A stretch of DNA of 63,879 nucleotides, taken from Nemertoderma westbladi (lineage: Eukaryota > Animalia > Xenacoelomorpha). Positions within the stretch are counted from its first letter, which is position 1. Every line of letters begins with the position of its first letter. A model generated the notes under the pieces. It saw only the letters and a list, made by a program, of their open reading frames with translations. It ran no database searches and was not told the DNA's origin. Positions 1 to 57,400 of the stretch are shown in pieces. A program made the translations under genes and the position numbers. The stretch covers positions 1 through 63,879 of the forward strand of contig JAUCBJ010004795.1 in the NCBI GenBank assembly GCA_032718475.1, read 5' to 3'.

Positions 1-648
1 TAACCCAATATGTACACCAACCCACTTTGTACACTAACCCACTTTGGACACTAACCCAATATGTACACTAAACCCGCAATGCCCTGCCCAGTAACCTAAC
101 TATGTACACCAACCCACTTTGTTCACTAACCCAATATGTACACTAACCAAATATGTACACTAACCCAATATGGACACTAACCTAACTATGTACACTAACC
201 CAATGTGTACACTAACCCACTTTGTACACTAACCCATTATGTACACTAACCCAATATGTACGTACACCAACCCACTTTGTACACTAACCCAATATGTACA
301 CTAAACCCAATATTAACACTAACCCAATATGTACACTAACCCAATATGTACACTAAACCCAATTTGAACACTAACCCAATATGTACACTAACCCAATATG
401 TACACTAACCCAATGTACACTAAACCCACTTTGTACACTAACCCAATATGTACACTAACCTAACTATGTACACTAACCCAATATGTACACTAAACCCAAT
501 TTGAACACTAACCCAATATGTACACTAACCCAATATGTACACTAACCCAATGTACACTAAACCCAATTTGTACACTAACCCGATATGTACACCTACCTAC
601 TATGTACACTAATCCCAATATGTACACTAAGTGTACACTATATGTACA
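1..648. repeat. Degenerate ~17-bp minisatellite (ACTAACCCAATATGTAC)n in EDEM3 intron 5, truncated by the window start
   Basis: Visible periodic repeat with many variants. ORFs 508..690 and 518..700 are largely its translation. Confidence 0.95.
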
Positions 649-796
649 ACAAACACGTAAGGTGTCATTCAGCATATTATTTAAAAACATGGGACTTTGA
701 AAAAAGACACTGAGCCCGCAACAGTAGCGTATAATATTCCTTATGCGTAACTATATACAATGTATTGAAAAATGGGAGGGGTTTGTGGGGGAATAT

Positions 797-1451: not shown

Positions 1452-1483
<32 letters not shown>

Positions 1484-1522
1484 TAGCACCCGCACCCCTT
1501 GTTGCATATTTCGAATAAATAC

Positions 1523-1654
1523 CTCGAATATGGGATCTTTGGAAAGTCGACTTAAAGCTGCGAACTCGAGTATTAGTGTCCCCGCACACGCAGTACAGGT
1601 GTCCTGATTAGCACCCACGCGTGATTTATCACCAATTCCGTACTTTAAGTTCAC
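1523..1654 (-). CDS. EDEM3: EDEM3-like exon 5 ([33 protein letters not shown])
   Basis: Acceptor tttcag at 1655-1660, donor GTATTT at 1522; 132 nt, phase 0/0. Confidence 0.93.
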
Positions 1655-4600
1655 CTGAAATTATAATATGTAATGATTATTATCAATACCGGGATAGACC
1701 CGAAACATTATTTATATTGTTAACAATTTATTGTAAATAAATTGCATATTCTACTTAAACTATGTGGCTATGAACTACAACTAACTACCGACACCCACTT
1801 ACATATTTTCTTACAAAGTTACTTACAAAATCCCATTGTATCTTTTAAATTTATTGTAGGTCAATGAGATATTGCTTTTATCTGTGTTTTAAATTGATGT
1901 AAGGTTGAGATTGTGGCTCTCGGAAGGTCTTTATGTAGATCGTTCCATAGAAGGGGGTGTGATAGGTAGAGGATTGGGTGAGGTTGGATCGGTAAAATGG
2001 GAATCGGTGCGATGCAGGTTGTTCGAGTGGGATAAGTATGGATAGATTTGGCGAATGTGAATTTGTTCTTTAGTTGGGTTGGGAGTTTTGATAGACCCAT
2101 CCTAAAGCAGAATGTGTACTGTAGGTAGGAATTTATCGAGTGAGGACAGATTCATTAATTTCAATTGATTAAATAAGATGTGTGTAATGGTGGTCATGAG
2201 ATTACAAGAGGATTATCCTAATGATTTTTTTCTGTAATTTTATTAATGGAAGAAGGCAGATAGCGGGGATAGGAGTGGTGTGATAATCGCCGCAGTTTCC
2301 CCAAAGTAAGATTCAATCACAGAATGATATAAGTTGATGAGTATATTTAGTGGCAAGAAGTTCTTAGTTTTGTTTACAATTCCAATATTTTTTTGCAATT
2401 TTCAGTCGAATATAATCGACATGTTTGTTCTATTTTCGGTCGAATATAATCGACATGTTTGTTCTATTTTCGGTCGAATATAATCGACATGTTTGTTCTA
2501 TTTTTGGTCATCCCTGTTAAATATACCAAGGTATTTTTATATGTTTACCTTGTTCAATGTTGTGTGGACCATTTGAGATTTGAGTATTCTTCAGTTGCGT
2601 TTTTTTAATCATGTATTTCGGTGGTGATGATTTTTTTATTCGCATATTTTGACTGTAATATAAAAACCTATACTAGCATAAAGCTGTGACAATTACATAC
2701 ATACTGAGCGTGATATAGCAGAAGCAACTCACTACCACCTATCATGTTTTAAATATATTACGGAGGATAAATAATACATTAATAATAAAGTACATGTGTG
2801 CCATGACAACTCATTAGTTAGTTCACTTCACATGGTACTCAATACTAACTACTAGGAGGACTAGCGCATTGTCGACATAAACACACATTAAACCCGCACT
2901 ACAATTACCAACACAACTTAGACCGCCCTGCGCTGTTGGTTTAAATGAATATTCACCTTACGAACTACAATATATATAATAAATAAATCGTTTAGTGTAG
3001 ATGGATGGTTGATTAAGAACTGATTTCGGTATAACTTTCTTAAAGAGTTTTTATTTTAAAAAAAGCAAAGCTCCATCAATAATGACGTGTCGCACCTTGA
3101 AGTAAATTAACATGGGGAGGTATTAATTTGGCGATGCGTGATTTTGTGTTCGTATTATTTACAATAACTATTATTTGTTTCTATTTCTTTGTGCTCATTC
3201 ATATTATTTAGTATTTATTTAGCCTTAGTTTTATACTAAAAACCAATAGTTATTGTCCTGCCCATTCCAATCTACGATAATAATATTAGTACACCATGTC
3301 CCGTAATATAGTGTCATTTTCTGATGACACGGACCCCCCCCCCCCCCAAATTTTTCTACAAATCTTTATCATATTGCTTAAAATTTGAAACATAACTAGT
3401 TCCACTCACCGTCGTTGACCCCATGAAGCCGGAATTTTCGATTAATAAGTGAGAATAAGATAGAATAAATGGCCTGCAGTGAACAATAATTCTTGCAATC
3501 TTTAAACTCCTATATCTCAGCTGTTTCTCAACGAAATTCAGATATTGTTACATATTTGGAATCCTTGCAACGCAAGCTTTCTATTGATGTGAACAAATTA
3601 CGACAAATATGAAGAATGTCCACGATACAGAGGGTGCGATTTCACAAAAGACACTTTTTAAAACGCTTATAAACAAAATTTGAAGACAAAATCGAAAATT
3701 CCGGCTTCATGGTAACAACGACGGTGAGTTGAACTAGTTGTGTTTCAAATTTCAAGCAATATGATAATGATTTGTAGAAAAATCTGGGGGGGGGGGGGGG
3801 GGGGTCCGTGTCACCAGAAAATGACACTATATTACGGGACATGGTGTATATATTACCTGAAAGTAAAAAAGTAGAACAAAAACTGTTGGCCGACTAATAC
3901 TAACCCTTGGATATGGAAGTCCTGATTTACTATTGAATGCCGGCAGTAATCTGTAAGCGATATCTTTGGATTTAGCAATAAGTTCATCGTTATACCAAAA
4001 CAATCCAACACCGTTGTCTCTGTACCAAACGGCAGCTGAATGACCTCCAAGCAATCCCCTGCAAAAATAATGGTCGATTTACTGATAAAAATATCCACCT
4101 GCAAAATTTAATATAAAATACAATTTTATTCACTAGAAAGGGAATTAAACCATGGAGACGAGCTTACTCACCCCAGCACACGGATCGTTGTCTCGTTACT
4201 CACCCCAGCACACGGATCGTTGTCTCGCTACTCACCCCAGCACACGGATCGTTGTCTCGTTACTCACCCCAGCACACGAATCGTTGTCTCGCTACTCACC
4301 CCAGCACACGGATCGTTGTCTCGCTACTCACCCCAGCACACGGATCGTTGTCTCGTTACTCACCCCAGCACACGGATCGTTGTCTCGCTACTCACCCCAG
4401 CACACGGATCGTTGTCTCGTTACTCACCCCAGCACACTGATCGTTGTCTCGTTACTCACCCCAGCACACGAATCGTTGTCTCGTCTACTCACCCCAGCAC
4501 ACGGATCGTTGTCTCGCTACTCACCCCAGCACACGGATCGTTGTCTCGTTACTCACCCCAGCACACGGATCGTTGTCTCGCTACTCACCCCAGCACACGA

Positions 4601-7600
4601 ATCGTTGTCTCGCTACTCACCCCAGCACACGGATCGTTGTCTCGTTACTCACCCCAGCACACGGATCGTTGTCTCGCTACTCACCCCAGCACACGGATCG
4701 TTGTCTCGCTACTCACCCCAGCACACGGATCGTTGTCTCGTTACTCACCCCAGCACACGGATCGTTGTCTCGCTACTCACCCCAGCACACGGATCGTTGT
4801 CTCGCTACTCACCCCATCACACTGATCGTTGTCTCGCTACTCACCCCAGCACACGGATCGTTGTCTCGCTACTCACCCCAGCACACGGATCGTTGTCTCG
4901 CTACTCACCCCATCACACTGATCGTTGTCTCGTTACTCACCCCAGCACACGGATCGTTGTCTCGCTACTCACCCCAGCACACGGATCGTTGTCTCGCTAC
5001 TCACCCCAGCACACGAATCGTTGTCTCGTTACTCACCCCAGCACACGGATCGTTGTCTCGTTACTCACCCCAGCACACGGATCGTTGTCTCGCTACTCAC
5101 CCCAGCACACGAATCGTTGTCTCGCTACTCACCCCAGCACACGGATCGTTGTCTCGTTACTCACCCCAGCACACGGATCGTTGTCTCGTTGTCGTTACTC
5201 ACCCCAGCACACGGATCGTTGTCTCGCTACTCACCCCAGCACACGGATCGTTGTCTCGCTACTCACCCCAGCACACTGATCGTTGTCTCGCTACTCACCC
5301 CAGCACACGAATCGTTGTCTCGTTACTCACCCCAGCACACGGATCGTTGTCTCGCTACTCACCCCAGCACACGAATCGTTGTCTCGCTACTCACCCCAGC
5401 ACACGGATCGTTGTCTCGCTACTCACCCCACGCTCACACTGATCGTTGTCTCGTTACTCACCCCAGCACACGGATCGTTGTCTCGCTACTCACCCCAGCA
5501 CACGGATCGTTGTCTCGCTACTCACCCCATCGCCATCACACTGATCGTTGTCTCGTTACTCACCCCAGCACACTGATCGTTGTCTCGCTACTCACCCCAG
5601 CACACTGATCGTTGTCTCGCTACTCACCCCAGCACACGAATCGTTGTCTCGTTACTCACCCCAGCACACGAATCGTTGTCTCGTTACTCACCCCAGCACA
5701 CGGATCGTTGTCTCGTTACTCACCCCAGCACACGAATCGTTGTCTCGCTACTCACCCCATCACACTGATCGTTGTCTCGTTACTCACCCCAGCACACGGA
5801 TCGTTGTCTCGCTACTCACCCCATCACACTGATCGTTGTCTCGTTACTCACCCCAGCACACGAATCGTTGTCTCGCTACTCACCCCAGCACACTGATCGT
5901 TGTCTCGTTACTCACCCCAGCACACGGATCGTTGTCTCGCTACTCACCCCATCACACTGATCGTTGTCTCGTTACTCACCCCAGCACACGGATCGTTGTC
6001 TCGCTACTCACCCCATCACACTGATCGTTGTCTCGTTACTCACCCCAGCACACGAATCGTTGTCTCGTTACTCACCCCAGCACACGAATCGTTGTCTCGT
6101 TACTCACCCCAGCACACGGATCGTTGTCTCGTTACTCACCCCAGCACACGAATCGTTGTCTCGCTACTCACCCCATCACACTGATCGTTGTCTCGTTACT
6201 CACCCCAGCACACGGATCGTTGTCTCGCTACTCACCCCATCACACTGATCGTTGTCTCGTTACTCACCCCAGCACACGGATCGTTGTCTCGCTACTCACC
6301 CCATCACACTGATCGTTGTCTCGTTACTCACCCCAGCACACGGATCGTTGTCTCGCTACTCACCCCAGCACACGAATCGTTGTCTCGTTACTCACCCCAG
6401 CACACGGATCGTTGTCTCGTTACTCACCCCAGCACACGAATCGTTGTCTCGCTACTCACCCCATCACACTGATCGTTGTCTCGTTACTCACCCCAGCACA
6501 CGGATCGTTGTCTCGCTACTCACCCCATCACACTGATCGTTGTCTCGTTACTCACCCCAGCACACGGATCGTTGTCTCGCTACTCACCCCATCACACTGA
6601 TCGTTGTCTCGTTACTCACCCCAGCACACGAATCGTTGTCTCGCTACTCACCCCAGCACACTGATCGTTGTCTCGCTACTCACCCCAGCACACGGATCGT
6701 TGTCTCGCTACTCACCCCAGCACACTGATCGTTGTCTCGCTACTCACCCCAGCACACGGATCGTTGTCTCGCTACTCACCCCAGCACACTGATCGTTGTC
6801 TCGCTACTCACCCCAGCACACGAATCGTTGTCTCGTTACTCACCCCAGCACACGAATCGTTGTCTCGTTACTCACCCCAGCACACGGATCGTTGTCTCGC
6901 TACTCACCCCAGCACACGAATCGTTGTCTCGCTACTCACCCCAGCACACGGATCGTTGTCTCGCTACTCACCCCAGCACACGGATCGTTGTCTCGCTACT
7001 CACCCCATCGCCATCACACTGATCGTTGTCTCGTTACTCACCCCAGCACACGGATCGTTGTCTCGCTACTCACCCCATCACACTGATCGTTGTCTCGTTA
7101 CTCACCCCAGCACACGGATCGTTGTCTCGCTACTCACCCCATCACACTGATCGTTGTCTCGATACTCACCCCAGCACACGAATCGTTGTCTCGCTACTCA
7201 CCCCAGCACACGGATCGTTGTCTCGCTACTCACCCCATCGCCATCACACTGATCGTTGTCTCGTTACTCACCCCAGCACACTGATCGTTGTCTCGCTACT
7301 CACCCCAGCACACTGATCGTTGCCTCGCTACTCACCCCAGCACACTGATCGTTGTCTCGCTACTCACCCCAGCACACGAATCGTTGTCTCGTTACTCACC
7401 CCAGCACACGAATCGTTGTCTCGTTACTCACCCCAGCACACGGATCGTTGTCTCGCTTACTCACCCCAGCACACGAATCGTTGTCTCGCTACTCACCCCA
7501 TCACACTGATCGTTGTCTCGTTACTCACCCCAGCACACGGATCGTTGTCTCGCTACTCACCCCATCACACTGATCGTTGTCTCGTTACTCACCCCAGCAC

Positions 7601-10600
7601 ACGAATCGTTGTCTCGCTACTCACCCCAGCACACTGATCGTTGTCTCGTTACTCACCCCAGCACACGGATCGTTGTCTCGCTACTCACCCCATCACACTG
7701 ATCGTTGTCTCGTTACTCACCCCAGCACACGGATCGTTGTCTCGCTACTCACCCCATCACACTGATCGTTGTCTCGTTACTCACCCCAGCACACGAATCG
7801 TTGTCTCGTTACTCACCCCAGCACACGAATCGTTGTCTCGTTACTCACCCCAGCACACGGATCGTTGTCTCGTTACTCACCCCAGCACACGAATCGTTGT
7901 CTCGCTACTCACCCCATCACACTGATCGTTGTCTCGTTACTCACCCCAGCACACGGATCGTTGTCTCGCTACTCACCCCATCACACTGATCGTTGTCTCG
8001 TTACTCACCCCAGCACACGGATCGTTGTCTCGCTACTCACCCCATCACACTGATCGTTGTCTCGTTACTCACCCCAGCACACGAATCGTTGTCTCGCTAC
8101 TCACCCCAGCACACTGATCGTTGTCTCGTTACTCACCCCAGCACACGGATCGTTGTCTCGCTACTCACCCCATCACACTGATCGTTGTCTCGTTACTCAC
8201 CCCAGCACACGGATCGTTGTCTCGCTACTCACCCCATCACACTGATCGTTGTCTCGTTACTCACCCCAGCACACGGATCGTTGTCTCGTTACTCACCCCA
8301 GCACACGAATCGTTGTCTCGTTACTCACCCCAGCACACGGATCGTTGTCTCGCTACTCACCCCAGCACACGAATCGTTGTCTCGCTACTCACCCCAGCAC
8401 ACGGATCGTTGTCTCGCTACTCACCCCAGCACACGGATCGTTGTCTCGCTACTCACCCCATCGCCATCACACTGATCGTTGTCTCGTTACTCACCCCAGC
8501 ACACGGATCGTTGTCTCGCTACTCACCCCATCACACTGATCGTTGTCTCGTTACTCACCCCAGCACACGGATCGTTGTCTCGTTACTCACCCCAGCACAC
8601 GGATCGTTGTCTCGCTACTCACCCCAGCACACGAATCGTTGTCTCGCTACTCACCCCAGCACACGGATCGTTGTCTCGCTACTCACCCCAGCACACGGAT
8701 CGTTGTCTCGCTACTCACCCCATCGCCATCACACTGATCGTTGTCTCGTTACTCACCCCAGCACACGGATCGTTGTCTCGCTACTCACCCCATCACACTG
8801 ATCGTTGTCTCGTTACTCACCCCAGCACACGGATCGTTGTCTCGCTACTCACCCCATCACACTGATCGTTGTCTCGTTACTCACCCCAGCACACGGATCG
8901 TTGTCTCGCTACTCACCCCAGCACACGGATCGTTGTCTCGCTACTCACCCCATCGCCATCACACTGATCGTTGTCTCGTTACTCACCCCAGCACACTGAT
9001 CGTTGTCTCGCTACTCACCCCAGCACACTGATCGTTGCCTCGCTACTCACCCCAGCACACTGATCGTTGTCTCGCTACTCACCCCAGCACACGAATCGTT
9101 GTCTCGTTACTCACCCCAGCACACGAATCGTTGTCTCGTTACTCACCCCAGCACACGGATCGTTGTCTCGTTATCGTTACTCACCCCAGCACACGAATCG
9201 TTGTCTCGCTACTCACCCCATCACACTGATCGTTGTCTCGTTACTCACCCCAGCACACGGATCGTTGTCTCGCTACTCACCCCATCACACTGATCGTTGT
9301 CTCGTTACTCACCCCAGCACACGAATCGTTGTCTCGCTACTCACCCCAGCACACTGATCGTTGTCTCGTTACTCACCCCAGCACACGGATCGTTGTCTCG
9401 CTACTCACCCCATCACACTGATCGTTGTCTCGTTACTCACCCCAGCACACGGATCGTTGTCTCGCTACTCACCCCATCACACTGATCGTTGTCTCGTTAC
9501 TCACCCCAGCACACGAATCGTTGTCTCGTTACTCACCCCAGCACACGAATCGTTGTCTCGTTACTCACCCCAGCACACGGATCGTTGTCTCGTTACTCAC
9601 CCCAGCACACGAATCGTTGTCTCGCTACTCACCCCATCACACTGATCGTTGTCTCGTTACTCACCCCAGCACACGGATCGTTGTCTCGCTACTCACCCCA
9701 TCACACTGATCGTTGTCTCGTTACTCACCCCAGCACACGGATCGTTGTCTCGCTACTCACCCCATCACACTGATCGTTGTCTCGTTACTCACCCCAGCAC
9801 ACGAATCGTTGTCTCGCTACTCACCCCAGCACACTGATCGTTGTCTCGTTACTCACCCCAGCACACGGATCGTTGTCTCGCTACTCACCCCATCACACTG
9901 ATCGTTGTCTCGTTACTCACCCCAGCACACGGATCGTTGTCTCGCTACTCACCCCATCACACTGATCGTTGTCTCGTTACTCACCCCAGCACACGAATCG
10001 TTGTCTCGTTACTCACCCCAGCACACGAATCGTTGTCTCGTTACTCACCCCAGCACACGGATCGTTGTCTCGCTACTCACCCCAGCACACGAATCGTTGT
10101 CTCGCTACTCACCCCAGCACACGGATCGTTGTCTCGCTACTCACCCCAGCACACGGATCGTTGTCTCGCTACTCACCCCATCGCCATCACACTGATCGTT
10201 GTCTCGTTACTCACCCCAGCACACGGATCGTTGTCTCGCTACTCACCCCATCACACTGATCGTTGTCTCGTTACTCACCCCAGCACACGGATCGTTGTCT
10301 CGCTACTCACCCCATCACACTGATCGTTGTCTCGCTACTCACCCCAGCACACGAATCGTTGTCTCGCTACTCACCCCAGCACACGGATCGTTGTCTCGCT
10401 ACTCACCCCATCGCCATCACACTGATCGTTGTCTCGTTACTCACCCCAGCACACTGATCGTTGTCTCGCTACTCACCCCAGCACACTGATCGTTGTCTCG
10501 CTACTCACCCCAGCACACGGATCGTTGTCTCGTTACTCACCCCAGCACACGGATCGTTGTCTCGCTACTCACCCCAGCACACGGATCGTTGTCTCGTTAC

Positions 10601-13600
10601 TCACCCCAGCACACGGATCGTTGTCTCGCTACTCACCCCAGCACACGGATCGTTGTCTCGTTACTCACCCCAGCACACGAATCGTTGTCTCGTTACTCAC
10701 CCCAGCACACGAATCGTTGTCTCGTTACTCACCCCAGCACACGGATCGTTGTCTCGTTACTCACCCCAGCACACGAATCGTTGTCTCGCTACTCACCCCA
10801 TCACACTGATCGTTGTCTCGTTACTCACCCCAGCACACGGATCGTTGTCTCGCTACTCACCCCATCACACTGATCGTTGTCTCGTTACTCACCCCAGCAC
10901 ACGGATCGTTGTCTCGCTACTCACCCCATCACACTGATCGTTGTCTCGCTACTCACCCCATCGCCATCACACTGATCGTTGTCTCGTTACTCACCCCAGC
11001 ACACTGATCGTTGTCTCGCTACTCACCCCAGCACACTGATCGTTGTCTCGCTACTCACCCCAGCACACGAATCGTTGTCTCGTTACTCACCCCAGCACAC
11101 GAATCGTTGTCTCGTTACTCACCCCAGCACACGGATCGTTGTCTCGTTACTCACCCCAGCACACGAATCGTTGTCTCGCTACTCACCCCATCACACTGAT
11201 CGTTGTCTCGTTACTCACCCCAGCACACGGATCGTTGTCTCGCTACTCACCCCATCACACTGATCGTTGTCTCGTTACTCACCCCAGCACACGGATCGTT
11301 GTCTCGCTACTCACCCCATCACACTGATCGTTGTCTCGTTACTCACCCCAGCACACGGATCGTTGTCTCGCTACTCACCCCATCACACTGATCGTTGTCT
11401 CGTTACTCACCCCAGCACACGGATCGTTGTCTCGCTACTCACCCCATCACACTGATCGTTGTCTCGTTACTCACCCCAGCACACGAATCGTTGTCTCGTT
11501 ACTCACCCCAGCACACGAATCGTTGTCTCGTTACTCACAGCACACGGATCGTTGTCTCGCTACTCACCCCATCACACTGATCGTTGTCTCGTTACTCACC
11601 CCAGCACACGGATCGTTGTCTCGCTACTCACCCCATCACACTGATCGTTGTCTCGTTACTCACCCCAGCACACGAATCGTTGTCTCGCTACTCACCCCAG
11701 CACACTGATCGTTGTCTCGTTACTCACCCCAGCACACGGATCGTTGTCTCGCTACTCACCCCATCACACTGATCGTTGTCTCGTTACTCACCCCAGCACA
11801 CGGATCGTTGTCTCGCTACTCACCCCATCACACTGATCGTTGTCTCGTTACTCACCCCAGCACACGGTTCGTTGTCTCGCTACTCACCCCAGCACACTGA
11901 TCGTTGTCTCGCTACTCACCCCAGCACACGGATCGTTGTCTCGCTACTCACCCCAGCACACGGATCGTTGTCTCGTTACTCACCCCAGCACACGGATCGT
12001 TGTCTCGCTACTCACCCCATCACACTGATCGTTGTCTCGTTACTCACCCCAGCACACGGATCGTTGTCTCGCTACTCACCCCAGCACACGGTTCGTTGTC
12101 TCGCTACTCACCCCAGCACACTGATCGTTGTTTCGCTACTCACCCCAGCACACGGATCGTTGTCTCGCTACTCACCCCAGCACACGGATCGTTGTCTCGT
12201 TACTCACCCCAGCACACGGATCGTTGTCTCGCTACTCACCCCATCACACTGATCGTTGTCTCGTTACTCACCCCAGCACACGGATCGTTGTCTCGCTACT
12301 CACCCCATCACACTGATCGTTGTCTCGTTACTCACCCCAGCACACGGATCGTTGTCTCACTACTCACCCCATCGCCATCACACTGATCGTTGTCTCGTTA
12401 CTCACCCCAGCACACGGATCGTTGTCTCGCTACTCACCCCAGCACACGGATCGTTGTCTCGTTACTCACCCCAGCACACGGATCGTTGTCTCGTTACTCA
12501 CCCCAGCACACGGATCGGTATCTCGTTACTCACCCCAGCACACGGATCGTTGTCTCGCTACTCACCCCAGCACACGGTTCGTTGTCTCGCTACTCACCCC
12601 AGCACACTGATCGTTGTTTCGCTACTCACCCCAGCACACGGATCGTTGTCTCGCTACTCACCCCAGCACACGGATCGTTGTCTCGTTACTCACCCCAGCA
12701 CACGAATCGTTGTCTCGCTACTCACCCCATCACACTGATCGTTGTCTCGCTACTCACCCCATCACACTGATCGTTGTCTCGCTACTCACCCCAGCACACG
12801 GATCGTTGTCTCGCTACTCACCCCAGCACACGAATCGTTGTCTCGTTACTCACCCCAGCACACGGATCGTTGACTCGCTACTCACCCCAGCACACGGATC
12901 GTTGTCTCGCTACTCACCCCAGCACACGAATCGTTGTCTCGCTACTCACCCCAGCACACGGATCGTTGTCTCGCTACTCACCCCAGCACACGGTTCGTTG
13001 TCTCGCTACTCACCCCAGCACACGAATCGTTGTCTCGCTACTCACCCCATCACACTGATCGTTGTCTCGTTACTCACCCCAGCACACGGATCGTTGTCTC
13101 GTTACTCACCCCAGCACACGGATCGTTGTCTCGTTACTCACCCCAGCACACGGATCGTTGTCTCGCTACTCACCCCAGCACACGGATCGTTGTCTCGCTA
13201 CTCACCCCATCACACTGATCGTTGTCTCGTTACTCACCCCAGCACACGGATCGTTGTCTCGTTACTCACCCCAGCACACGGATCGTTGTCTCGTTACTCA
13301 CCCCAGCACACGGATCGTTGTCTCGCTACTCACCCCAGCACACGGATCGTTGTCTCGTTACTCACCCCAGCACACGGATCGTTGTCTCGCTACTCACCCC
13401 AGCACACGGATCGTTGTCTCGTTACTCACCCCAGCACACGGATCGTTGTCTCGAAGGTCGATACTACCACATCGTTATCGAAGGAAACCTCGTTGATTAC
13501 TTTACGAACGGAGCTATCAAACCTATCGATGTCACCAATAACCGCGATAGTATCAAGAGAATCAATAAGAGTTAACGCAAACCTAAAATATTCAAACAGA

Positions 13601-18075: not shown

Positions 18076-18089
18076 AATAATCCAATGAT

Positions 18090-41879: not shown

Positions 41880-42441
41880 TTATAACGTATCTTGGAATCC
41901 CTTTCCATCTTGAAATTGACGTCGATTATCAAAATCCGCATCATCAACGGGTTGTAAGACGGGCTGGTCGTCATCTACAGGTCCCTCACTGTCCGGCAAA
42001 TCGTCAGCAACATGTATCGAGTCCGCGGCATGATGCGCTGAGTCCGCGGCAATAACCGCGGCATTATGTGGAGAGTCATCAGTTTGATCTTGCTGCCAAT
42101 CAGTTGGATCTTCTAACTGTTGGTTCTGGGCCGGTAGAGCCTGGTGATTGGCTGGATCTAACTGTTGGTTCTGGGCCGGTAGAGCCTGGTGATTGGCTCC
42201 CATAAGTACATCAGGTTGCACGGGGCCCGGCCCTGCGCCGTGGGCCTGCGCTGCGTTGATTGGTTGTTGTATCTGGTTATCTCTTCCATCCACCGGGTCA
42301 TTCACATTTTGCAATGGCTTCTCTATCTGAACTCCCAGATTCTGTTTAACAACACCGTCTGCCTGGGCATCTTCACCGTGTTTCTGTTTAACAACACTGT
42401 CTGCTTGTTCGTCTCCAACGTTTTGCGAGTTACAAGTTAAC
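41880..42441 (-). CDS. GOLM2: GOLM-like terminal exon 5 (acidic, Gln/Asp-rich; internal ANHQALPAQNQQL duplication)
   Basis: Acceptor ttttcctttag at 42442; frame of ORF 41880..42518; TAA at 41880. Confidence 0.8.
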
Positions 42442-45400: not shown

Positions 45401-48400
45401 CCAAGACCGAATTCATGACCTTTAATGTTGATGGAAACTTGACAACCATTGATAATAATCAACTAATGAAGGTCGACGACTTCCAGTACCTTGGATCATG
45501 GATAGAGAGTAGCAAAAAGGACATAGAAGTTAGGAAAGCAAAGGCTTGGGTAGCTCTATCAAAAATGGATACCATCTGGAAATCAGATCTCTCCAGGCAC
45601 CTGAAGACTAAGTTCTTTCGAGCCACAGTGGAAAGTGTATTTTTATACGGGGGTGAGACCTGGACACTGACTAAATCATTTGAACAACGAATTGATGGTT
45701 GCTACACAGGACTACTAAGGGCAGCCCTAAACATCAGCTGGAGACAACACATGACAAACGCCGAGCTTTATGGTACAATACCACCTGTATCAACCACCCT
45801 CCGTTAACGCAGATTAAGATTCAGTGGGCACTGCTGGCGAAGTAAAGACGAGGTCATACCAGATCTACTTCTCTGGCAACCAACTCATGGAAAGCGTAGT
45901 CGTGGACGACCTGCCATAACATATATAGATCAACTTGAAAGGAATACTGAACTTGGGAGAAACGAAATTGCGACAACTATGGAGAATCGGGAAACCTGGA
46001 AGGATCTCATTTCCACTGTCCGAGTTCGCTCGACCTAGTAGTAGTAGTGCCTCCTTATAATTTGACAGATATTTAGAACTAACCTTAAATTGAAGGGAAG
46101 GTTTGAAAACTTTACCCTCAATTATCTCAAATAATTGACATAATCTTGAGAATGGCTTGTTGAAATTTCATAAAATTTGTACTGAAAGTTCCCTACCATA
46201 TAAGGTAACTTTTGATCTAGAATTAAGAAAATCTGATTGTAAGTTGTATAACTTTTTGTGAGAAAAAGGTCGTGTTTTTTTTCAAATTCCCGATTTTTGG
46301 AGTTTTTTTTCTCAAAAAAATGCCATATCTCCATAAGATATATAGTCAAGGGGTAACCATTTTATAGTATTACAATATCATGGAATATACAATTAAAAAG
46401 ACACACTTAGGGCACGTAGTGTTAGTGTTTTAGTGTTAGCACATGTTATATTAAGTAGTCTGGTCTAATTTTTAAGCAAACATTATGTTACACAAGTAAA
46501 TGAATTTTCTTATACCACAAACGAATTTAAATATCGATATAATTTGTTTATTTCAATCGGATACATTTTCGGGAATATCAATTTATCTCTTCGCTGATTA
46601 AATTCGGTACCATTCTATGAATGGCAAATGGAACCCCAGTAGCTAAAATACCATAAATTATTGTAATCGAATTTAGATAATTTTTTTTGTCAACCACCCA
46701 CGCCTCCCTAACAATAACTGTCAACCACCCACGCCTCCCTAACAATAACTTACAACTGAGTGTTGAGAAGGCTTATTTCGTGTCTCAAATCTTCCAGATT
46801 GCCCTGATTTTCGACTATTTCGTCTTCTAGTTTTCCCTTTTCCAGTCTATTCGCACGCAGCTGCTCCTCGTTAGAAGATCGCAATTTATCCTGGAAATTA
46901 AAAAAAATGATCTCCAATAAATAACAATTCGGGTATTGAACTTTATTACCAATTAAAAAGACTACAGCGGCGGTAACAAATGACCAATACTAATTTTAGT
47001 CCACGGCAGTGTGTGTATTGATTCCGCAGTTCGATGGAATGGGAGTGAGAGTGAGGATCGAGGCATCGACATGATCTTTGTTACCAGAAGACAGTACCAT
47101 GGACTCAAACTGTTCTGTAAAGAGGCCATTCATTACGGTGGTGGGGCGAGCTAAGAAAGTAAACCAACTTAGCTTACAGGTACCGCTATCTCAACCTGTG
47201 TGTCTGTCGATCCCAATATTTGAACCTTAATAGCTCTGCCAAACATCGATGAAATCTAACCACACTTGGTACACAAATAATCTATCAAAAGTTGAGAAAT
47301 TTTCCCGAAGTAGGATTTACGTGTTACGTATGGCCTACAAGAAATTAAAATAAAAGTAGTTAATGAGTTAATTATTGTCAATTGCGGTAAAAAAGGCCAT
47401 TTTCAACATGCCTTATAATGGAAATTAATTATTTTCTAACATTAAATTAAATTAACTAAACTTAAAAATTATACAGCTGAATCCCCATTCCATTATAGCT
47501 TATAATTAGTTCAAGTGCTTTACTTTAAAAATCCCACTTTCTATATGTAAATTGGTATGATTGCTGTTCTGAAAGCACTACTAACTGGCTGTAGGAACTA
47601 TGTGACTGGGGGTGGGGGAGGTTTCTATAGGACAGCCAGCGAAAATATCCAGACTAATTAAAGCTTGCTTATTCAATCGTAGGAAGAGATACAAAATTGT
47701 TTATCTCATAATAATAATTATAAAATTAATATTAACAAACATAATTTCATCAACAATTTCTCAACTGTTGGTCTTATTTATGCCAATTAACTAATTTTCA
47801 ACTCGACAGTTTTAAATCCGACAAAGTTATAAGCATGTTAAAATAGTAACGACAGCGACGACACTACACTATTAGTAATTATTGATCCACCCCCTAACAA
47901 ACAGTGTCAGTTCGCTAAGACTCCGCCAACTTCGAGGCTCGCTCCATACAAATGTGCTTCGCCACCGACGAATAACCAGCAGTAGCGAGTAAATAATTGT
48001 CATAATTTCATTGAAACAATAAACTTAAAAGGATCGATTTTTTAGATATTTATATCTATATTTTTTGTTTATATAGTCAGTCTGTTGGTGGACCGAATTG
48101 AAATAATAGAAAATTTAAAGATAAATTCCTAATAATAATAAAACTGTCTGAATGGCTAAATTTTACTTCTACCGGTAATATATTAAATTAGCAGTTAGTA
48201 GAACTAAAATTACTAAAATAAATTATCCAATGAAAGTCTAGTTTTATTTACTAAACATAATGATGGAACGTAGTAACGTAGACTGCCAGTGTCCTATCAC
48301 TAATTAATGATGGAAAGACTTACTTCTATCACTAAAATAGTTTTAGTACTAGACCTGCTATTTATATAATTTACTATTATCAAAAAAGAATAAAATAACG

Positions 48401-51400
48401 GAAAGGGAGCACTTCTTGTCACCATTTTCAATTGAAAAAATAATGTGGCAAACTGTCAGACGAGTTTCTAAATCAGTATTTGTAGCGCGGCTGAGGTACT
48501 CACGTATTGTGTTGCAGCTGAGGTACTCACGTATTGTAGTGCGGCTGAGGTACTCACGTATTGTGTTGCGGCTGAGGTACTCACGTATTGTGTTGCAGCT
48601 GAGGTACTCACGTATTGTAGTGCGGCTGAGGTACTCACGTATTGTAGTGCGGCTGAGGTACTCACGTATTGTAGTGCGGCTGAGGTACTCACGTATTGTA
48701 GTGCGGCTGAGGTACTCACGTATTGTAGTGCGGCTGAGGTACTCACGTATTGTAGTACTGCTGAGGTACTCACGTATTGTAGTGCGGCTGAGGTACTCAC
48801 GTATTGTGTTGCGGCTGAGGTACTCACGTATTGTAGTGCGGCTGAGGTACTCACGTATTGTGTTGCGGCTGAGGTACTCACGTATTGTGTTGCAGCTGAG
48901 GTACTCACGTATTGTAGTGCGGCTGAGGTACTCACGTATTGTAGTGCGGCTGAGGTACTCACGTATTGTAGTGCGGCTGAGGTACTCACGTATTGTAGTA
49001 CTGCTGAGGTACTCACGTATTGTGTTGCGGCTGAGGTACTCACGTATTGTAGTGCGGCTGAGGTACTCACGTATTGTGTTGCGGATGAGGTACTCACGTA
49101 TTGTAGTGCGGCTGAGGTACTCACGTATTGTAGTGCGGCTGAGGTACTCACGTATTGTGTTGCGGATGAGGTACTCACGTATTGTAGTGCGGCTGAGGTA
49201 CTCACGTATTGTAGTACTGCTGAGGTACTCACGTATTGTAGTGCGGCTGACCTACTCACGTATTGTGTTGCGGCTGAGGTATTTACGTATTGTAGTGTGG
49301 CTGAGGTACTCACGTATTGTAGTACTGCTGAGGTACTCACGTATTGTAGTACTGCTGAGGTACTCACGTATTGTGTTGCGGCTGAGGTACTCACGTATTG
49401 TAGCGCGGCTGAGGTACTCACGTATTGTAGTGCGACTGAGGTACTCACGTATTGTAGTACTGCTGAGGTACTCACGTATTGTAGTGCGACTGAGGTACTC
49501 ACGTATTGTGTTGCGGCTGAGGTACTCACGTATTGTAGCGCGGCTGAGGTACTCACGTATTGTAGTGCGACTGAGGTACTCACGTATTGTAGTGCGGCTG
49601 AGGTACTCACGTATTGTGTTGCGGCTGAGGTACTCACGTATTGTGTTGCGGCTGAGGTATTTACGTATTGTAGTGCGGCTGAGGTACTCACGTATTGTAG
49701 TGCGGCTGAGGTACTCACGTATTGTAGTGCGGCTGAGGTACTCACGTATTGTGTTGCGGCTGAGGTGAGGTACTCACGTATTGTGTTGCGGCTGAGGTAC
49801 TCACGTATTGTGTTGCGGCTGAGGTACTCACGTATTGTAGTGCGGCTGAGGTACTCACGTATTGTGTTGCAGCTAAGGTACTCACGTATTGTAGTGCGGC
49901 TGAGGTACTCACGTATTGTAGTGCGGCTGAGGTACTCACGTATTGTAGTGCGGCTGAGGTACTCACGTATTGTGTTGCGGCTGAGGTACTCATGTATTGT
50001 AGTGCGGCTGAGGTACTCACGTATTGTGTTGCAGCTGAGGTACTCACGTATTGTAGTGCGGCTGAGGTACTCACGTATTGTGTTGCAGCTGAGGTACTCA
50101 CGTATTGTAGTGCGGCTGAGGTACTCACGTATTGAGTTGCGGCTGAGGTACTCACGTATTGTAGTGCGGCTGCGGTACTCACGTATTGAGTTGCGGCTGA
50201 GGTACTCACGTATTGTGTTGCGGCTGGGGTACTCACGTATTGTAGTGCGGCTGAGGTACACACGTATTGTAGTGCGACTGAGGTACTCACGTATTGTGTT
50301 GCGGCCGAGGTACTCACGTATTGTAGTGCGGCTGAGGTACTCACGTATTGTAGTGCGGCTGAGGTACTCACGTATTGTAGTACTGCTGCGGTACTCACGT
50401 ATTGTAGTCAGTGCGGCTGAGGTACTCACGTATTGTAGTGCGGCTGAGGTACTCACGTATTGTAGTGCGGTTGACCTACTCACGTATTGTGTTGCGGCTG
50501 AGGTACTCACGTATTGTGTTGCAGCTGAGGTACTCACGTATTGTAGTGCGGTTGAGGTACTCACGTATTGTAGTGCGGCTGAGGTACTCACGTATTGTAG
50601 TGCGGCTGAGGTACTCATGTATTGTAGTGCGGCTGAGGTACTCACGTATTGTAGTGCGGCTGAGGTACTCACGTATTGTAGTGCGACTGAGGTACTCACG
50701 TATTGTGTTGCGGCTGAGGTACTCACGTATTGTAGTGCGGCTGAGGTACTCACGTATTGTAGTGCGACTGAGGTACTCACGTATTGTAGTGCGGCTGAGG
50801 TACTCACGTATTGTAGTGCGACTGAGGTACTCACGTATTGTGTTGCGGCTGTGGTACTCACGTATTGTAGTGCGGCTGAGGTACTCACGTATTGTAGTGC
50901 GGCTGAGGTACTCACGTATTGTAGTGCGACTGAGGTACTCACGTATTGTGTTGCGGCTGAGGTACTCACGTATTGTAGTGCGGATGAGGTACTCACGTAT
51001 TGTAGTGCGACTGAGGTACTCACGTATTGTAGTGCGGCTGAGGTACTCACGTATTGTAGTGCGACTGAGGTACTCACGTATTGTAGTGCGACTGAGGTAC
51101 TCACGTATTGTGTTGCGACTGAGGTACTCACGTATTGTAGTGCGGCTGAGGTACTCACGTATTGTGTTGCGGCTGAGGTACTCACGTATTGTGTTGCGGC
51201 TGAGGTACTCACGTATTGTAGTGCGGCTGAGGTACTCACGTATTGTAGTGCGACTGAGGTACTCACGTATTGTAGTGCGGCTGAGGTACTCACGTATTGT
51301 AGTGCGGCTGAGGTACTCACGTATTGTAGTGCGGCTGAGGTACTCACGTATTGTAGTGCGGCTGAGGTACTCACGTATTGTAGTGCGGCTGAGGTACTCA

Positions 51401-54400
51401 CGTATTGTAGTGCGGCTGAGGTACTCACGTATTGTAGTGCGGCTGAGGTACTCACGTATTGTAGTGCGACTGAGGTACTCACGTATTGTGTTGCGGCTGA
51501 GGTACTCACGTATTGTAGTGCGGCTGAGGTACTCACGTATTGTAGTGCGACTGAAGTACTCACGTATTGTGTTGCGGCTGAGGTACTCACGTATTGTAGT
51601 GCGGCTGAGGTACTCACGTATTGTAGTGCGACTGAGGTACTCACGTATTGTAGTGCGGCTGAGGTACTCACGTATTGTAGTGCGGCTGAGGTACTCACGT
51701 ATTGTAGTGCAACTGAGGTACTCACGTATTGTGTTGCGGCTGAGGTACTCACGTATTGTAGTGCGGCTGAGGTACTCACGTATTGTAGTGCGGATGAGGT
51801 ACTCACGTATTGTAGTGCGGCTGAGGTACTCACGTATTGTAGTGCGACTGAGGTACTCACGTATTGTGTTGCGGCTGAGGTACTCACGTATTGTAGTGCG
51901 GCTGAGGTACTCACGTATTGTAGTGCGACTGAGGTACTCACGTATTGTAGTGCGGCTGAGGTACTCACGTATTGTAGTGCGGCTGAGGTACTCACGTATT
52001 GTAGTGCGACTGAGGTACTCACGTATTGTGTTGCGGCTGAGGTACTCACGTATTGTAGTGCGGCTGAGGTACTCACGTATTGTAGTGCGACTGAGGTACT
52101 CACGTATTGTGTTGCGGCTGAGGTACTCACGTATTGTAGTGCGGCTGAGGTACTCACGTATTGTAGTGCGGCTGAGGTACTCACGTATTGTAGTGCGGCT
52201 GAGGTACTCACGTATTGTGTTGCGGCTGAGGTACTCACGTATTGTAGTGCGACTGAGGTACTCACGTATTGTAGTGCGACTGAGGTACTCACGTATTGTG
52301 TTGCGGCTGAGGTACTCACGTATTGTAGTGTGGCTGAGGTACTCACGTATTGTGTTGCGGCTGAGGTACTCACGTATTGTAGTGCGACTGAGGTACTCAC
52401 GTATTGTGTTGCGGCTGAGGTACTCACGTATTGTAGTGCGACTGAGGTACTCACGTATTGTGTTGCGGCTGAGGTACTCACGTATTGTAGTGCGACTGAG
52501 GTACTCACGTATTGTAGTACTGCTGAGGTACTCACGTATTGAGTTGCGGCTGAGGTACTCACGTATTGTAGTGCGACTGAGGTACTCACGTATTGTAGTG
52601 CGACTGAGGTACTCACGTATTGTAGTGCGGATGAGGTACTCACGTATTGTAGTGCGGCTGAGGTACTCACGTATTGTAGTGCGACTGAGGTACTCACGTA
52701 TTGTGTTGCGGCTGAGGTACTCACGTATTGTAGTGCGGCTGAGGTACTCACGTATTGTAGTGCGACTGAGGTACTCACGTATTGTAGTGCGGCTGAGGTA
52801 CTCACGTATTGTAGTGCGGCTGAGGTACTCACGTATTGTAGTGCGACTGAGGTACTCACGTATTGTGTTGCGGCTGAGGTACTCACGTATTGTAGTGCGG
52901 CTGAGGTACTCACGTATTGTAGTGCGACTGAGGTACTCACGTATTGTGTTGCGGCTGAGGTACTCACGTATTGTAGTGCGGCTGAGGTACTCACGTATTG
53001 TAGTGCGGCTGAGGTACTCACGTATTGTAGTGCGACTGAGGTACTCACGTATTGTGTTGCGGCTGAGGTACTCACGTATTGTAGTGCGGCTGAGGTACTC
53101 ACGTATTGTAGTGCGGCTGAGGTACTCACGTATTGTAGTGCGGCTGAGGTACTCACGTATTGTGTTGCGGATGAGGAACTCACGTATTGTAGTGCGACTG
53201 AGGTACTCACGTATTGTAGTGCGACTGAGGTACTCACGTATTGTGTTGCGGCTGAGGTACTCACGTATTGTAGTGTGGCTGAGGTACTCACGTATTGTGT
53301 TGCGGCTGAGGTACTCACGTATTGTAGTGCGACTGAGGTACTCACGTATTGTAGTGCGGCTGAGGTACTCACGTATTGTAGTGCGGCTGAGGTACTCACG
53401 TATTGTAGTGCGACTGAGGTACTCACGTATTGTGTTGCGGCTGAGGTACTCACGTATTGTAGTGTGGCTGAGGTACTCACGTATTGTGTTGCGGCTGAGG
53501 TACTCACGTATTGTAGTGCGGCTGAGGTACTCACGTATTGTAGTGCGACTGAGGTACTCACGTATTGTGTTGCGGCTGAGGTACTCACGTATTGTAGTGC
53601 GGCTGAGGTACTCACGTATTGCGTTGCGGCTGAGGTACTCACGTATTGTAGTGCGACTGAGGTACTCACGTATTGTGTTGCGGCTGAGGTACTCACGTAT
53701 TGTAGTGTGGCTGAGGTACTCACGTATTGTGTTGCGGCTGAGGTACTCACGTATTGTAGTGCGACTGAGGTACTCACGTATTGTAGTGCGGCTGAGGTAC
53801 TCACGTATTGTAGTGTGGCTGAGGTACTCACGTATTGTGTTGCGGCTGAGGTACTCACGTATTGTAGTGCGACTGAGGTACTCACGTATTGTAGTGCGGC
53901 TGAGGTACTCACGTATTGTAGTGCGACTGAGGTACTCACGTATTGTGTTGCGGCTGAGGTACTCACGTATTGTAGTGTGGCTGAGGTACTCACGTATTGT
54001 GTTGCGGCTGAGGTACTCACGTATTGTAGTGCGACTGAGGTACTCACGTATTGTAGTGCGGCTGAGGTACTCACGTATTGTAGTGCGGCTGAGGTACTCA
54101 CGTATTGTAGTGCGACTGAGGTACTCACGTATTGTGTTGCGGCTGAGGTACTCACGTATTGTAGTGTGGCTGAGGTACTCATGTATTGTGTTGCGGCTGA
54201 GGTACTCACGTATTGTAGTGCGGCTGAGGTACTCACGTTTTGTAGTGCGACTGAGGTACTCACGTATTGTGTTGCGGCTGAGGTACTCACGTATTGTAGT
54301 GCGGCTGAGGTACTCACGTATTGTAGTGCGACTGAGGTACTCACGTATTGTAGTGCGACTGAGGTACTCACGTATTGTGTTGCGGCTGAGGTACTCACGT

Positions 54401-57400
54401 ATTGTAGTGCGACTGAGGTACTCACGTATTGTGTTGCGGCTGAGGTACTCACGTATTGTAGTGCGACTGAGGTACTCACGTATTGTGTTGCGGCTGAGGT
54501 ACTCACGTATTGTAGTGCGACTGAGGTACTCACGTATTGTAGTACTGCTGAGGTACTCACGTATTGAGTTGCGGCTGAGGTACTCACGTATTGTGTTGCG
54601 GCTGAGGTACTCACGTATTGTAGTGCGACTGAGGTACTCACGTATTGTGTTGCGGCTGAGGTACTCACGTATTGTAGTGCGGCTGAGGTACTCACGTATT
54701 GTGTTGCGGCTGAGGTACTCACGTATTGTAGTGCGACTGAGGTACTCACGTATTGTGTTGCGGCTGAGGTACTCACGTATTGTAGTGCGACTGAGGTACT
54801 CACGTATTGTAGTGCGACTGAGGTACTCACGTATTGTAGTGCGACTGAGGTACTCACGTATTGTAGTGCGACTGAGGTACTCACGTATTGTAGTGCGACT
54901 GAGGTACTCACGTATTGTGTTGCGGCTGAGGTACTCACGTATTGTAGTGCGACTGAGGTACTCACGTATTGTAGTGCGACTGAGGTACTCACGTATTGTA
55001 GTGCGACTGAGGTACTCACGTATTGTGTTGCGGCTGAGGTACTCACGTATTGTAGTGCGGCTGAGGTACTCACGTATTGTAGTGCGGCTGAGGTACTCAC
55101 GTATTGTAGTGCGGCTGAGGTACTCACGTATTGTAGTGCGGCTGAGGTACTCACGTATTGTAGTGCGGCTGAGGTACTCACGTATTGATCTTGACATCGA
55201 AGTAAGTCGGACTGCGCAAGTTTTTCTTTATTTTCAATTTCCTCCTTTTCATGGAGATTGGCAGCCACTTGGCCATCTAGTAGCCCTGAAATAAAAGAAA
55301 ATATAAGTATTATATTCCGGTAGATAAATCTAACTTTATACAACAAATCAAACAGCTTAGCTCTCTCTATACCAATTAATATAAATAAATATCTACGACC
55401 TACTTCTGTACGTCTAACCCAGATTCACACCCCACGGTACTACCCGTGGCACCCCACCGTACGGTACTACAGGTATTAATTAAGGCACACCTGCTCGCTT
55501 TTTAGATTTCTCCAATTCATCTTTCAACGATTCAACCTCCTTAGTAATTTGCTCTACTCGGTAAAGCAGATCAGTATTTCTTTCCTCAAGAACACGTTTG
55601 TTAGAGACATTATCTTCTACCTGTAACAGAAGCGCTGTCAGACAGTTAGGCCCGTGGAAAATATAATTTGGGCCTACGTACAAATTTTAAATAAATTATG
55701 ACCAGTGCCGGATAGCTGGATTAAGGATTTTTGCAGCGGCCTGTAGCTTTCTCAAGGTTGCTGAATAAATGATGCCAAAAACTCTTCACTGTGCTTGAGG
55801 TCAACATACCACCCACCAGGCACGCAGGAGGGTGACACCGCGCCGCGACCACGTGACCCAGACCCACGACATAACGTGAGACGTCGGTCTCTTGACTGCT
55901 TGATGTTTGACGCGTAGGGGTAGGGTTAACTCTTAAAATTCCGGACACCATGGTCAAATTACGGACAAATTTAAATTTCATTGGTACAAACTATAGAATT
56001 AATATCTGAATTTGTACAATAGCCTATAGACTTTGATCACTGATGACTTAGAGGTACGGTCAGAATCACTAGAGGGAGCCCAAAGGCCCCTTTGCCAATT
56101 GGAGCAGGTTGTTTCTAGTGTCTGGTCTTTTTGTAAATTCCAAGAAGACCAAAATAATCACAGTCAACCTAGACAGTACTGCAGTACCAGTACTGCAGTA
56201 CTCTTATGGGAGTCCATGCTGAGCTCTACTGCTCTAACTGCTGAGGATACCAAATATGGTACTTTCACAAGAATGCTGCGCCGGGTTCATTGTTTCAAGT
56301 CCAATGAACACATCTCGAATCCTCTAATCAGACTCTATACAAAATTGGATGTGTTCCATTAATCTACCCTAGCTTGACTCTTGGGCGGAGCCGCCTCCGC
56401 TTTGCAGGACTGCATAGACCGATTCCAGATTCAAGCATCACCAAATTTTCAAAAGTTGCTAGCTGTTGATTGCCTATTGCATAAATTGTTTGCTTATTAT
56501 TATTACCAATAAAGGCTCGCCAAGCCTACTTGTCTATCTTTTGTGATACCGGTATGTCTAAACAGTACTTTATATAAGCCAGCAGAACCTGGAACGCTTT
56601 AGGCATAACTACAGAACTATATATATAATATATATTCCAGTAGGTGTATCATATATATTATAGGCAGTACTTATTACGATGGCTCTGGGTTATAATCGCA
56701 AGACACAGGTTAAATTCTATAAATCGTTAAATAGACAATTTGGGAGAGGAGCCCCATCGATAATTGATCCAAACATTGAGAAATATGTTGTATCGACTCT
56801 GATATATATTGGTAATTGTGGTTGGCCACTAACTGACAAAACCGAGACCAACTAATCCACATCATAAGAAATGCGTCTGGTGATATTTCCAATCGATGTA
56901 ATGTCTGCCAACAACCATAGCACTACTGTAGTAACTCTAGAACAACTTTGTTTAATTTATAATAGTTTCAATTATCAGCGCAATATCCTATGCAGTGTAA
57001 TCTGTTACTATTTTCTAAAAGATATTTTAGTTATTTTAGAATAATACTGTATACAAATTAATTGTTGTATTCTATATATATAGTCCAATAGTCAAGTCCG
57101 TCTCGCAGTGTATATTTGATAGTCTGATAGTAGTATCAGAGCCATATCATATACATTTAGTGGGCCTATAATTTTGTTATTATTGTATACCAATTATTAT
57201 CATAAAGCAATGCAGTTAGTTCATTTAAACAAAAATATTTTAAATAACACGGGTGGTGGGTGAGACGGGAGGGGCAACTGCTAACTGTTCGCAAATTCCA
57301 TCTTGGTGAATGAATATTTCGCTGCAATGTTAAATTCTCAATTTAGGGAAATGCGAAATAACGGTAAACACGAATGAGCAGATTATAGTGACACGTATTT

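What the first reader, a model, noticed from the sequence alone, without database searches (positions are those of the whole stretch)
1..55187. All five satellites carry a 5' splice-site (U1-complementary) motif on the same, transcribed strand
Seen, on the minus strand: 17-mer TGG|GTTAGT, 32-mer GGG|GTGAGT, 55-mer TCA|GTTAGT, 20-mer AAT|GTGAGA (plus AAG|GTAGAT/GTAAAT) and 27-mer TAC|GTGAGT. Two demonstrably begin at a real donor. Both spliced genes here are on the minus strand and use GTGAGT/GTTAGT donors. Established: U1 snRNP binding to cryptic donors suppresses premature cleavage/polyadenylation (telescripting). Inference: this lineage may preferentially seed or tolerate 'donor satellites', either because donors are slippage/R-loop hot spots or because U1-coated arrays are the ones that survive in transcripts. 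The 55- and 20-mers are not inside an identified gene, so their motifs may be chance.
Basis: partly seen in the sequence, partly recalled or inferred. Interest (0 to 1): 0.7.

Follow-up and report, generated by a model that had tools for sequence, protein, structure and literature searches.

The report
Two giant splice-donor repeat arrays
Two of the five long DNA repeats here are hundreds of tandem copies of a gene's own exon end and splice signal, an oddity already known from lancelet and human genes, where the cell likely keeps using the first copy; the signal-like motifs in the other three repeats are likely chance.

Summary
All five motifs are present on the minus strand, but they are not one phenomenon. 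The 32-mer (288 donor copies) is the last 24 nt of an EDEM-type mannosidase exon plus 8 nt of intron. The 27-mer (242 copies) starts at the modelled exon-3 donor of a coiled-coil membrane-protein gene. Both fit the donor-spanning minisatellites of human F7 and amphioxus ('mirages'). Donor anchoring exceeds chance in this window (2 of 5 large arrays, expected 0.05, P about 0.001), and a two-copy 31-mer sits 3 nt behind a third donor. The 17-mer lies 893 nt inside an intron. The 55- and 20-mers lie between the genes, so their 'transcribed strand' is unknown. Their motifs are weak and borderline against nulls (P 0.002 to 0.24, depending on the test). No array shows selective conservation of its motif, and none holds a poly(A) signal, although AATAAA lies 41 nt behind the 32-mer's last donor. 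One oddity is unexplained: the 27-mer stays stop-free and in frame over 6.7 kb across two compensating indels (P about 0.03). No RNA or whole genome was available. New members of a known kind; interest 0.3.

The parts
4165..13453 (-). 32-bp satellite, about 288 units; unit = last 24 nt of EDEM-type exon 3 plus first 8 nt of intron 3; makes up 9265 of 9371 nt of the intron
48480..55187 (-). 27-bp satellite, about 248 units; unit = last 6 nt of modelled exon 3 plus first 21 nt of intron; 242 GTGAGT copies, 220 in frame with the first; no stop in the exon frame
46688..46750 (-). two-copy 31-bp duplication beginning 3 nt behind the donor at 46753; the donor itself is not copied
1..630 (-). 17-bp satellite, cut by the window edge; 893 nt behind the exon-5 donor, probably mid-intron; unit holds GGGTTAG (telomere-like, label recalled)
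18090..22949 (.). 55-bp satellite, about 88 units, between the two genes; abuts a LINE-like fragment and the 20-mer; weak donor-like site
22948..39464 (.). 20-bp satellite, about 826 units, between the two genes; purine-rich minus strand (G skew 0.87)
14249..14379 (-). EDEM-type gene, modelled first coding exon (ATG, hydrophobic stretch); no homology support
   Evidence: five-exon model, 239 aa, 0 stops; no Pfam hit
13684..13830 (-). EDEM-type exon 2 (GH47 profile 1-27)
13430..13582 (-). EDEM-type exon 3 (GH47 profile 34-84); its donor at 13429 is the first unit of the 32-mer
3905..4058 (-). EDEM-type exon 4 (GH47 profile 87-126), GTTAGT donor
1523..1654 (-). EDEM-type exon 5 (GH47 profile 136-168); the gene must continue beyond the window's left edge
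58043..58195 (-). second gene, modelled exon 1 (N-terminal hydrophobic stretch); GOLM1/GOLM2-like by recalled resemblance only
   Evidence: no family found
55491..55620 (-). second gene, modelled exon 2 (weak leucine-zipper-type Pfam hits below cut-off)
55182..55285 (-). second gene, modelled exon 3; its donor at 55181 is the first unit of the 27-mer
46754..46890 (-). second gene, modelled exon 4
41880..42441 (-). second gene, modelled last coding exon with stop; first AATAAA downstream at 41602
4125..4130 (-). AATAAA 41 nt behind the last donor copy of the 32-mer (4171)

Best explanation
The 32-mer and the 27-mer are tandem arrays whose first unit spans an exon end and its splice donor, likely tolerated because splicing likely keeps using the first donor, while the donor-like motifs of the 17-, 55- and 20-mers are likely chance. 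Shown: the array anatomy, and homology continuity across the 32-mer intron. Inferred: a short local duplication across the donor (for the 27-mer a 5-nt end match points to slippage), then expansion by unequal exchange or slippage to 6.7-9.3 kb. Inferred from human F7: 5'-to-3' selection of the most upstream donor leaves the mRNA unchanged. In the EDEM-type gene, use of any later copy would read straight into TGA and would likely be degraded. In the second gene most later copies would add 9 residues per unit in frame.
For: Unit anatomy at both junctions. P0122 residues 263-313 and 314-373 fall on the exons either side of the 32-mer intron; the GH47 profile runs 34-84, then 87-126. Both gene models are stop-free with the first donors. 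The same architecture is described for F7, 6-16, CBS, lamin B2 and PDGF (PMC1557585) and for amphioxus mirages (PMC3087553 section 16; PMC3902484). No array shows a significant deficit of variants in its motif: 0 of 11, 4 of 26, 2 of 34, 11 of 36 and 2 of 11 distinct variants (32-, 27-, 55-, 20-, 17-mer), expected 2.1, 5.8, 3.7, 10.8 and 3.9, p 0.24-1.0. For the three unanchored arrays, 9-mer donor scores give shuffle p 0.15, 0.51 and 0.23, Fisher 0.24.
Against: No RNA was available, so first-donor use is not shown here. Donor anchoring exceeds chance, which neutrality alone does not explain. The 27-mer's unbroken in-frame ORF has a chance of about 0.02-0.04. The second gene has no homolog to confirm its exon-3 donor. 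In four of five arrays the variant count in the motif is below expectation, and the tests have little power. In human 6-16 and CBS, later copies are also used.
Confidence: 0.7

Rival explanations
1. One reading: this lineage seeds arrays at donors, and keeps those whose U1-binding copies shield cryptic poly(A) signals that the expansion has pushed out of range of the real donor.
For: 3 of 14 arrays lie within 5 nt of a donor and 0 at an acceptor. EDEM intron 3 has only 106 nt of unique sequence left, with AATAAA 41 nt behind the last copy; the real donor is now 9.3 kb away. The reported protective range is about 500-1000 nt (PMC5499120, passages). All 271 units of the 32-mer cut in register keep GTGAGT.
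Against: There is no poly(A) signal inside any array, and one terminal copy would give the same shield as 288. AATAAA is common in these introns anyway (16 in 12,289 nt). Motif conservation is not significant. Two arrays lie outside the modelled genes. The sample is one window chosen after the fact.
Confidence: 0.12
2. The 27-mer is partly or wholly coding: splicing uses the last donor (48503) or a ladder of in-frame donors, inserting up to about 2,230 Ser/Thr/Ala-rich residues into the protein's stalk.
For: One frame is open from 55424 to 48468, 2318 aa. There is no stop between the first and last donor; indels of +4 and +5 sum to +9, and the 23 units between them fall in the other open frame. 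Chance is about 0.02-0.04 given an open 27-nt unit. Repeats at human exon-intron boundaries are often retained in an alternative transcript (PMC2812944, passages).
Against: No synonymous bias: 8 of 23 variant types, against 22 of 81 possible. The commonest variants change residues, and 23 units would encode a different peptide. A 6.8-kb internal exon is unusual (general knowledge). The test was made after the fact, and two of three minus-strand frames are open by composition.
Confidence: 0.1
3. One or more of the 55-, 20- and 17-mers also began at a real splice site of an exon not recognised here, such as an untranslated exon of the EDEM-type gene or an acceptor beyond the window edge.
For: An exon-like stretch with acceptor and donor lies at about 16556-16630, upstream of the EDEM ATG (sequence; donor listed). 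The joint motif probability is borderline.
Against: The flank upstream of the 20-mer is AT-rich with AATAAA at 39526 and no strong donor nearer than 41656. The 55-mer has no unique upstream flank. tblastn with two GH47 proteins finds no exon between 1523 and the 17-mer. Of 14 frames scanned from the intergenic flanks and the first EDEM exon, none passed a Pfam cut-off.
Confidence: 0.1
4. The array lengths are inflated by assembly.
For: Arrays fill about 38 kb of 64 kb; no reads were available to check.
Against: Units vary in structured ways (14, 30, 34 and 51 distinct units among those cut in register), and the junctions with unique sequence are clean.
Confidence: 0.03

Closest known systems
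Human F7 intron-7 37-bp VNTR, with 6-16 (IFI6), CBS intron 13, lamin B2 and PDGF intron 4 (PMC1557585; abstract and passages read)
   Same: The first unit spans the exon-intron boundary and the donor is repeated identically into the intron. The F7 unit (4 nt exon + 33 nt intron) resembles the 27-mer (6 + 21).
   Different: The human arrays have 5-26 copies; these have about 250-290 and fill 81-99% of their introns. Donor choice was measured there and is not measured here.
Amphioxus 'mirage' minisatellites in Adh3, globins BflGb6/BflGb9, troponin C and PGBD5 (PMC3087553 section 16 read whole; PMC3902484 one passage; the original Adh paper was not held)
   Same: Tandem duplication of exon-intron boundaries, seen at several loci of one lineage, with no reported harm to normal splicing.
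   Different: Mirages occur at both donors and acceptors, and the BflGb6 clusters have 3-6 units; here only donors are hit and the arrays are kilobases long. The lineage here is not resolved (Beclin 48-61% identical to many phyla).
U1 telescripting (PMC5499120; passages read)
   Same: Cryptic donors can bind U1 and suppress a poly(A) signal within about 500-1000 nt; two arrays end within that range of an AATAAA.
   Different: No U1 binding or premature cleavage was measured, and the arrays themselves hold no poly(A) signal.
Internal tandem repeats at exon-intron boundaries of human paralogs, spliced out or retained as coding repeats (PMC2812944; passages read)
   Same: A boundary repeat can stay in frame and be kept in an alternative transcript, as the 27-mer could.
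   Different: There it is supported by transcripts; here only the open frame is seen.

Membership tests
Donor-spanning minisatellite (F7 VNTR / mirage type): 32-mer and 27-mer | Head-to-tail tandem array of a 10-160 bp unit | tested here: met
Donor-spanning minisatellite: 32-mer | First unit spans the 3' end of a real exon and its donor | tested here: met
   the homolog is continuous across the intron
Donor-spanning minisatellite: 27-mer | First unit spans the 3' end of a real exon and its donor | tested here: inconclusive
   Met on a stop-free five-exon model; no homolog and no RNA confirm the exon
Donor-spanning minisatellite: 32-mer and 27-mer | Donor sequence repeated in the following units | tested here: met
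   288 and 242 GTGAGT copies
Donor-spanning minisatellite: 32-mer and 27-mer | mRNA uses the first donor, or the first few | not testable with these tools
   no RNA holder was listed for the stretch searched
Donor-spanning minisatellite: 32-mer and 27-mer | Copy number varies between alleles | not testable with these tools
   one sequence only; no genome held
Donor-spanning minisatellite: 17-, 55- and 20-mers | First unit spans a real exon end | tested here: not met
   893 nt, 23.8 kb and 7.3 kb from the nearest modelled upstream donor; unrecognised exons are not excluded
Telescripting element | Poly(A) signal within about 1 kb downstream of a U1 site | tested here: inconclusive
   none inside the arrays; AATAAA 41 nt and about 255 nt behind the last copies, but the hexamer is common in these introns
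Telescripting element | U1 site under purifying selection | tested here: inconclusive
   no significant deficit of variants in any of five motifs; low power
Telescripting element | U1-dependent suppression of premature cleavage | not testable with these tools
   needs 3'-end sequencing with U1 blocked
Coding VNTR exon (27-mer) | Unbroken frame joining the flanking exons | tested here: met
Coding VNTR exon (27-mer) | Excess of synonymous change | tested here: not met
   8 of 23 against 22 of 81 possible
Coding VNTR exon (27-mer) | Array present in mature mRNA | not testable with these tools
   no RNA available

The most novel reading that the evidence does not exclude
This animal lineage seeds satellites at 5' splice sites far above chance across its genome, and the donor copies do work: the last copy shields a poly(A) signal that expansion has moved kilobases from the real donor, and the 27-mer is an in-frame ladder of 220 donors that sets the length of a membrane protein's stalk by up to about 2,230 residues.
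Probability: 0.1. Interest if true: 0.7.

Novelty: new member of a known kind. Interest (0 to 1): 0.3.

Why it matters
Donor-spanning minisatellites are a natural test of how the spliceosome picks one site among identical ones. These two raise the number of copies from tens to nearly 300, and they form a contrasting pair: later donors of the 32-mer would make stop-containing RNA, while most later donors of the 27-mer would make in-frame products visible in ordinary RNA-seq. If the local excess at donors holds genome-wide, it would point to a mutational bias at 5' splice sites and a route to inflating short introns (about 114 nt to 9.4 kb here). As it stands it is a large example of a known oddity.

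Tried and rejected
The one sequencing-run search (55200-62700, RNA) listed no RNA holder; this is no evidence either way, and no reads could be laid. An exact 22-nt exon pattern found 0 matches in metagenome contigs. Homolog searches for the second gene with exon 1 alone gave nothing usable: 0 hits, one weak hit at E 8e-4 on the hydrophobic stretch, unnamed short clusters; GOLM-like is therefore a recalled label. A common origin of the 55- and 20-mers was tested and is not significant (shuffle p 0.06 and 0.21); among ten unit pairs the lowest p was 0.036 (32 versus 27, both holding GTGAGT). A hidden gene in the flanks 14.4-18.1 kb and 39.6-41.9 kb: 13 of the 75 listed frames, plus the first EDEM exon, were scanned, and none passed a Pfam cut-off. 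An exon at about 16556-16612 as the EDEM start was dropped for the exon at 14249-14379, which gives a stop-free model. The long plus-strand ORFs over the 20-mer were set aside as a result of its G-poor composition. The unit walk covered only 200 units and was redone on 246. The original amphioxus Adh paper was not held. No earlier notes exist for this genome or for look-alike stretches.

Full report
Setting. The window is animal DNA: an intronless Beclin-1 ORF (61249-62535, plus strand) is 48-61% identical to Beclins of many phyla among the 120 listed hits, with no close relative. No genome was held, and no RNA holder was listed. TRF finds five large arrays that leave 25,877 nt of other sequence.

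Genes. Two spliced genes lie on the minus strand. The first is an EDEM-type GH47 mannosidase: four exons hit PF01532 at profile positions 1-27, 34-84, 87-126 and 136-168, and a five-exon model from 14379 gives 239 aa without a stop. EDEM3 in particular is a recalled label; one search lists ER mannosidase I and EDEM1 chains. The second gene is a five-exon, 362-aa stop-free model with an N-terminal hydrophobic stretch. It resembles GOLM1/GOLM2 from memory only; three searches with exon 1 found no family.

Two arrays start at donors. The 32-mer unit is the last 24 nt of exon 3 and the first 8 nt of the intron. The first donor is the one that fits homology: P0122 aligns to residue 313 at the exon end and resumes at 314 in exon 4. 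There are 288 GTGAGT copies, and only 106 nt of unique intron remain, so a short intron has grown about 80-fold (inferred). The codon across the donor runs into TGA, so any later donor would add a stop. The 27-mer unit is 6 nt of exon and 21 nt of intron; the exon end and the far end of the array share a 5-nt match, which suggests slippage (inferred). A two-copy 31-mer begins 3 nt behind the next donor of the same gene.

Is anchoring more than chance? From the 26 TRF rows, I dropped 9 redundant rows, 2 homopolymers and 1 trinucleotide run, and collapsed the 14 remaining arrays to one unit each. Two of 14 overlap one of 9 donors (expected 0.14, P 0.008), 3 of 14 lie within 5 nt (expected 0.19, P 0.0008), and 0 of 14 touch one of 8 acceptors (expected 0.12-0.21). 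Among the five large arrays, 2 are anchored (expected 0.05, P 0.001). The window was picked for this feature, so these values overstate the case.

The other three arrays. The 17-mer starts 893 nt behind the exon-5 donor, and tblastn finds no exon between them. The 55- and 20-mers form one block between the genes, with no shown direction of transcription. None of the three has strict GTRAGT. U1 duplex energies are -8.3 (17-mer), -2.5 (55-mer GTTAGT site), -4.4 and -6.5 (20-mer) kcal/mol, against -4.3 to -12.2 for the nine real donors. On a 9-mer consensus score the 55-mer reaches 5.5, below all nine real donors (6-8.5) and below its own plus strand (6). With the score, the joint chance of all three reaching 5.5 is 0.04 by shuffling and 0.003 against random window segments; Fisher's combined p is 0.24 and 0.044. 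All three minus strands are G-rich (skew 0.38-0.87), which raises the chance of GT-AG words. GTTAGT is the reverse complement of ACTAAC, and the 17-mer motif overlaps GGGTTAG (the branch-point and telomere labels are recalled). I read these as probably chance, without excluding more.

Telescripting and R-loops. No array holds AATAAA or ATTAAA on the minus strand. The motif positions are not significantly protected from change in any array (0 of 11, 4 of 26, 2 of 34, 11 of 36, 2 of 11 distinct variants; p 0.24-1.0), though four of five counts are below expectation and power is low. The hexamer is common here, however (16 in 12,289 nt of unique intron). The 27-mer is C-rich on the transcribed strand, which does not favour R-loops (general knowledge).

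An unexplained point. The exon-3 frame stays open through the whole 27-mer. Indels of +4 and +5 restore the frame, the 23 units between them are read in the other open frame, and 220 of 242 donors, including the last, are in frame. Given an open 27-nt unit, the chance of this is about 0.02-0.04. There is no synonymous bias (8 of 23 against 22 of 81). I give a coding reading about 10%.

What is known. Minisatellites whose first unit spans an exon-intron boundary are described for human F7, 6-16, CBS, lamin B2 and PDGF. Only the first donor is used in F7, lamin B2 and PDGF; two further copies are also used in 6-16 and CBS (PMC1557585: abstract and passages). Amphioxus 'mirages' are the same structure at several loci (PMC3087553: passages and section 16 whole; PMC3902484: one passage). 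I also read passages of PMC2812944, PMC5499120, PMC10078293 and PMC9909926; no supplements were opened. Nine searches, seen as listings, showed no title on a genome-wide test of arrays at donors or on a link between such arrays and telescripting; the library lacks most subscription journals. Earlier AI notes of this scan list similar arrays in other animals, one with almost 300 copies; these are unchecked leads.

Verdict. Observation partly confirmed; interpretation partly supported. Two arrays are very large members of a known kind, and the claim that all five are donor satellites on a transcribed strand is not established. Interest 0.3.

Noticed in passing
window 61249-62535 (+): Intronless Beclin-1 ORF (APG6 and APG6_N), head to head with the second gene. 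Animal Beclin-1 genes usually have introns (recalled), so this may be a retrocopy or a case of intron loss.
   Followed up: partly
window 43499-46040 (+): Non-LTR retrotransposon with endonuclease and RVT_1 domains, broken by frameshifts and a stop, with a short TAG-repeat tail, antisense inside intron 4 of the second gene; RTE-like by recall.
   Followed up: partly
window about 17450-18075 (-): Degraded 3' fragment that looks like a CR1/L2 LINE (recalled motifs; no Pfam hit). The 55-mer begins at its truncated 5' end.
   Followed up: partly
window 22948-22949: The 20-mer and the 55-mer join with no spacer; their similarity is not significant.
   Followed up: yes
window 3290-3848, 17062-17243, 40789-41262, 62766-63395: Long terminal inverted repeats that suggest MITEs; a partial second copy of the 40789-41262 element lies at about 47790-47946.
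   Followed up: no
window about 16556-16630 (-): Exon-like stretch with a pyrimidine-rich acceptor and a GTGAAT donor, upstream of the EDEM ATG; possibly an untranslated exon.
   Followed up: partly
window 42112-42198 and about 42345-42410: A 45-bp and an apparent 42-bp in-frame duplication inside the last coding exon of the second gene; short tandem duplications seem frequent in this genome.
   Followed up: no
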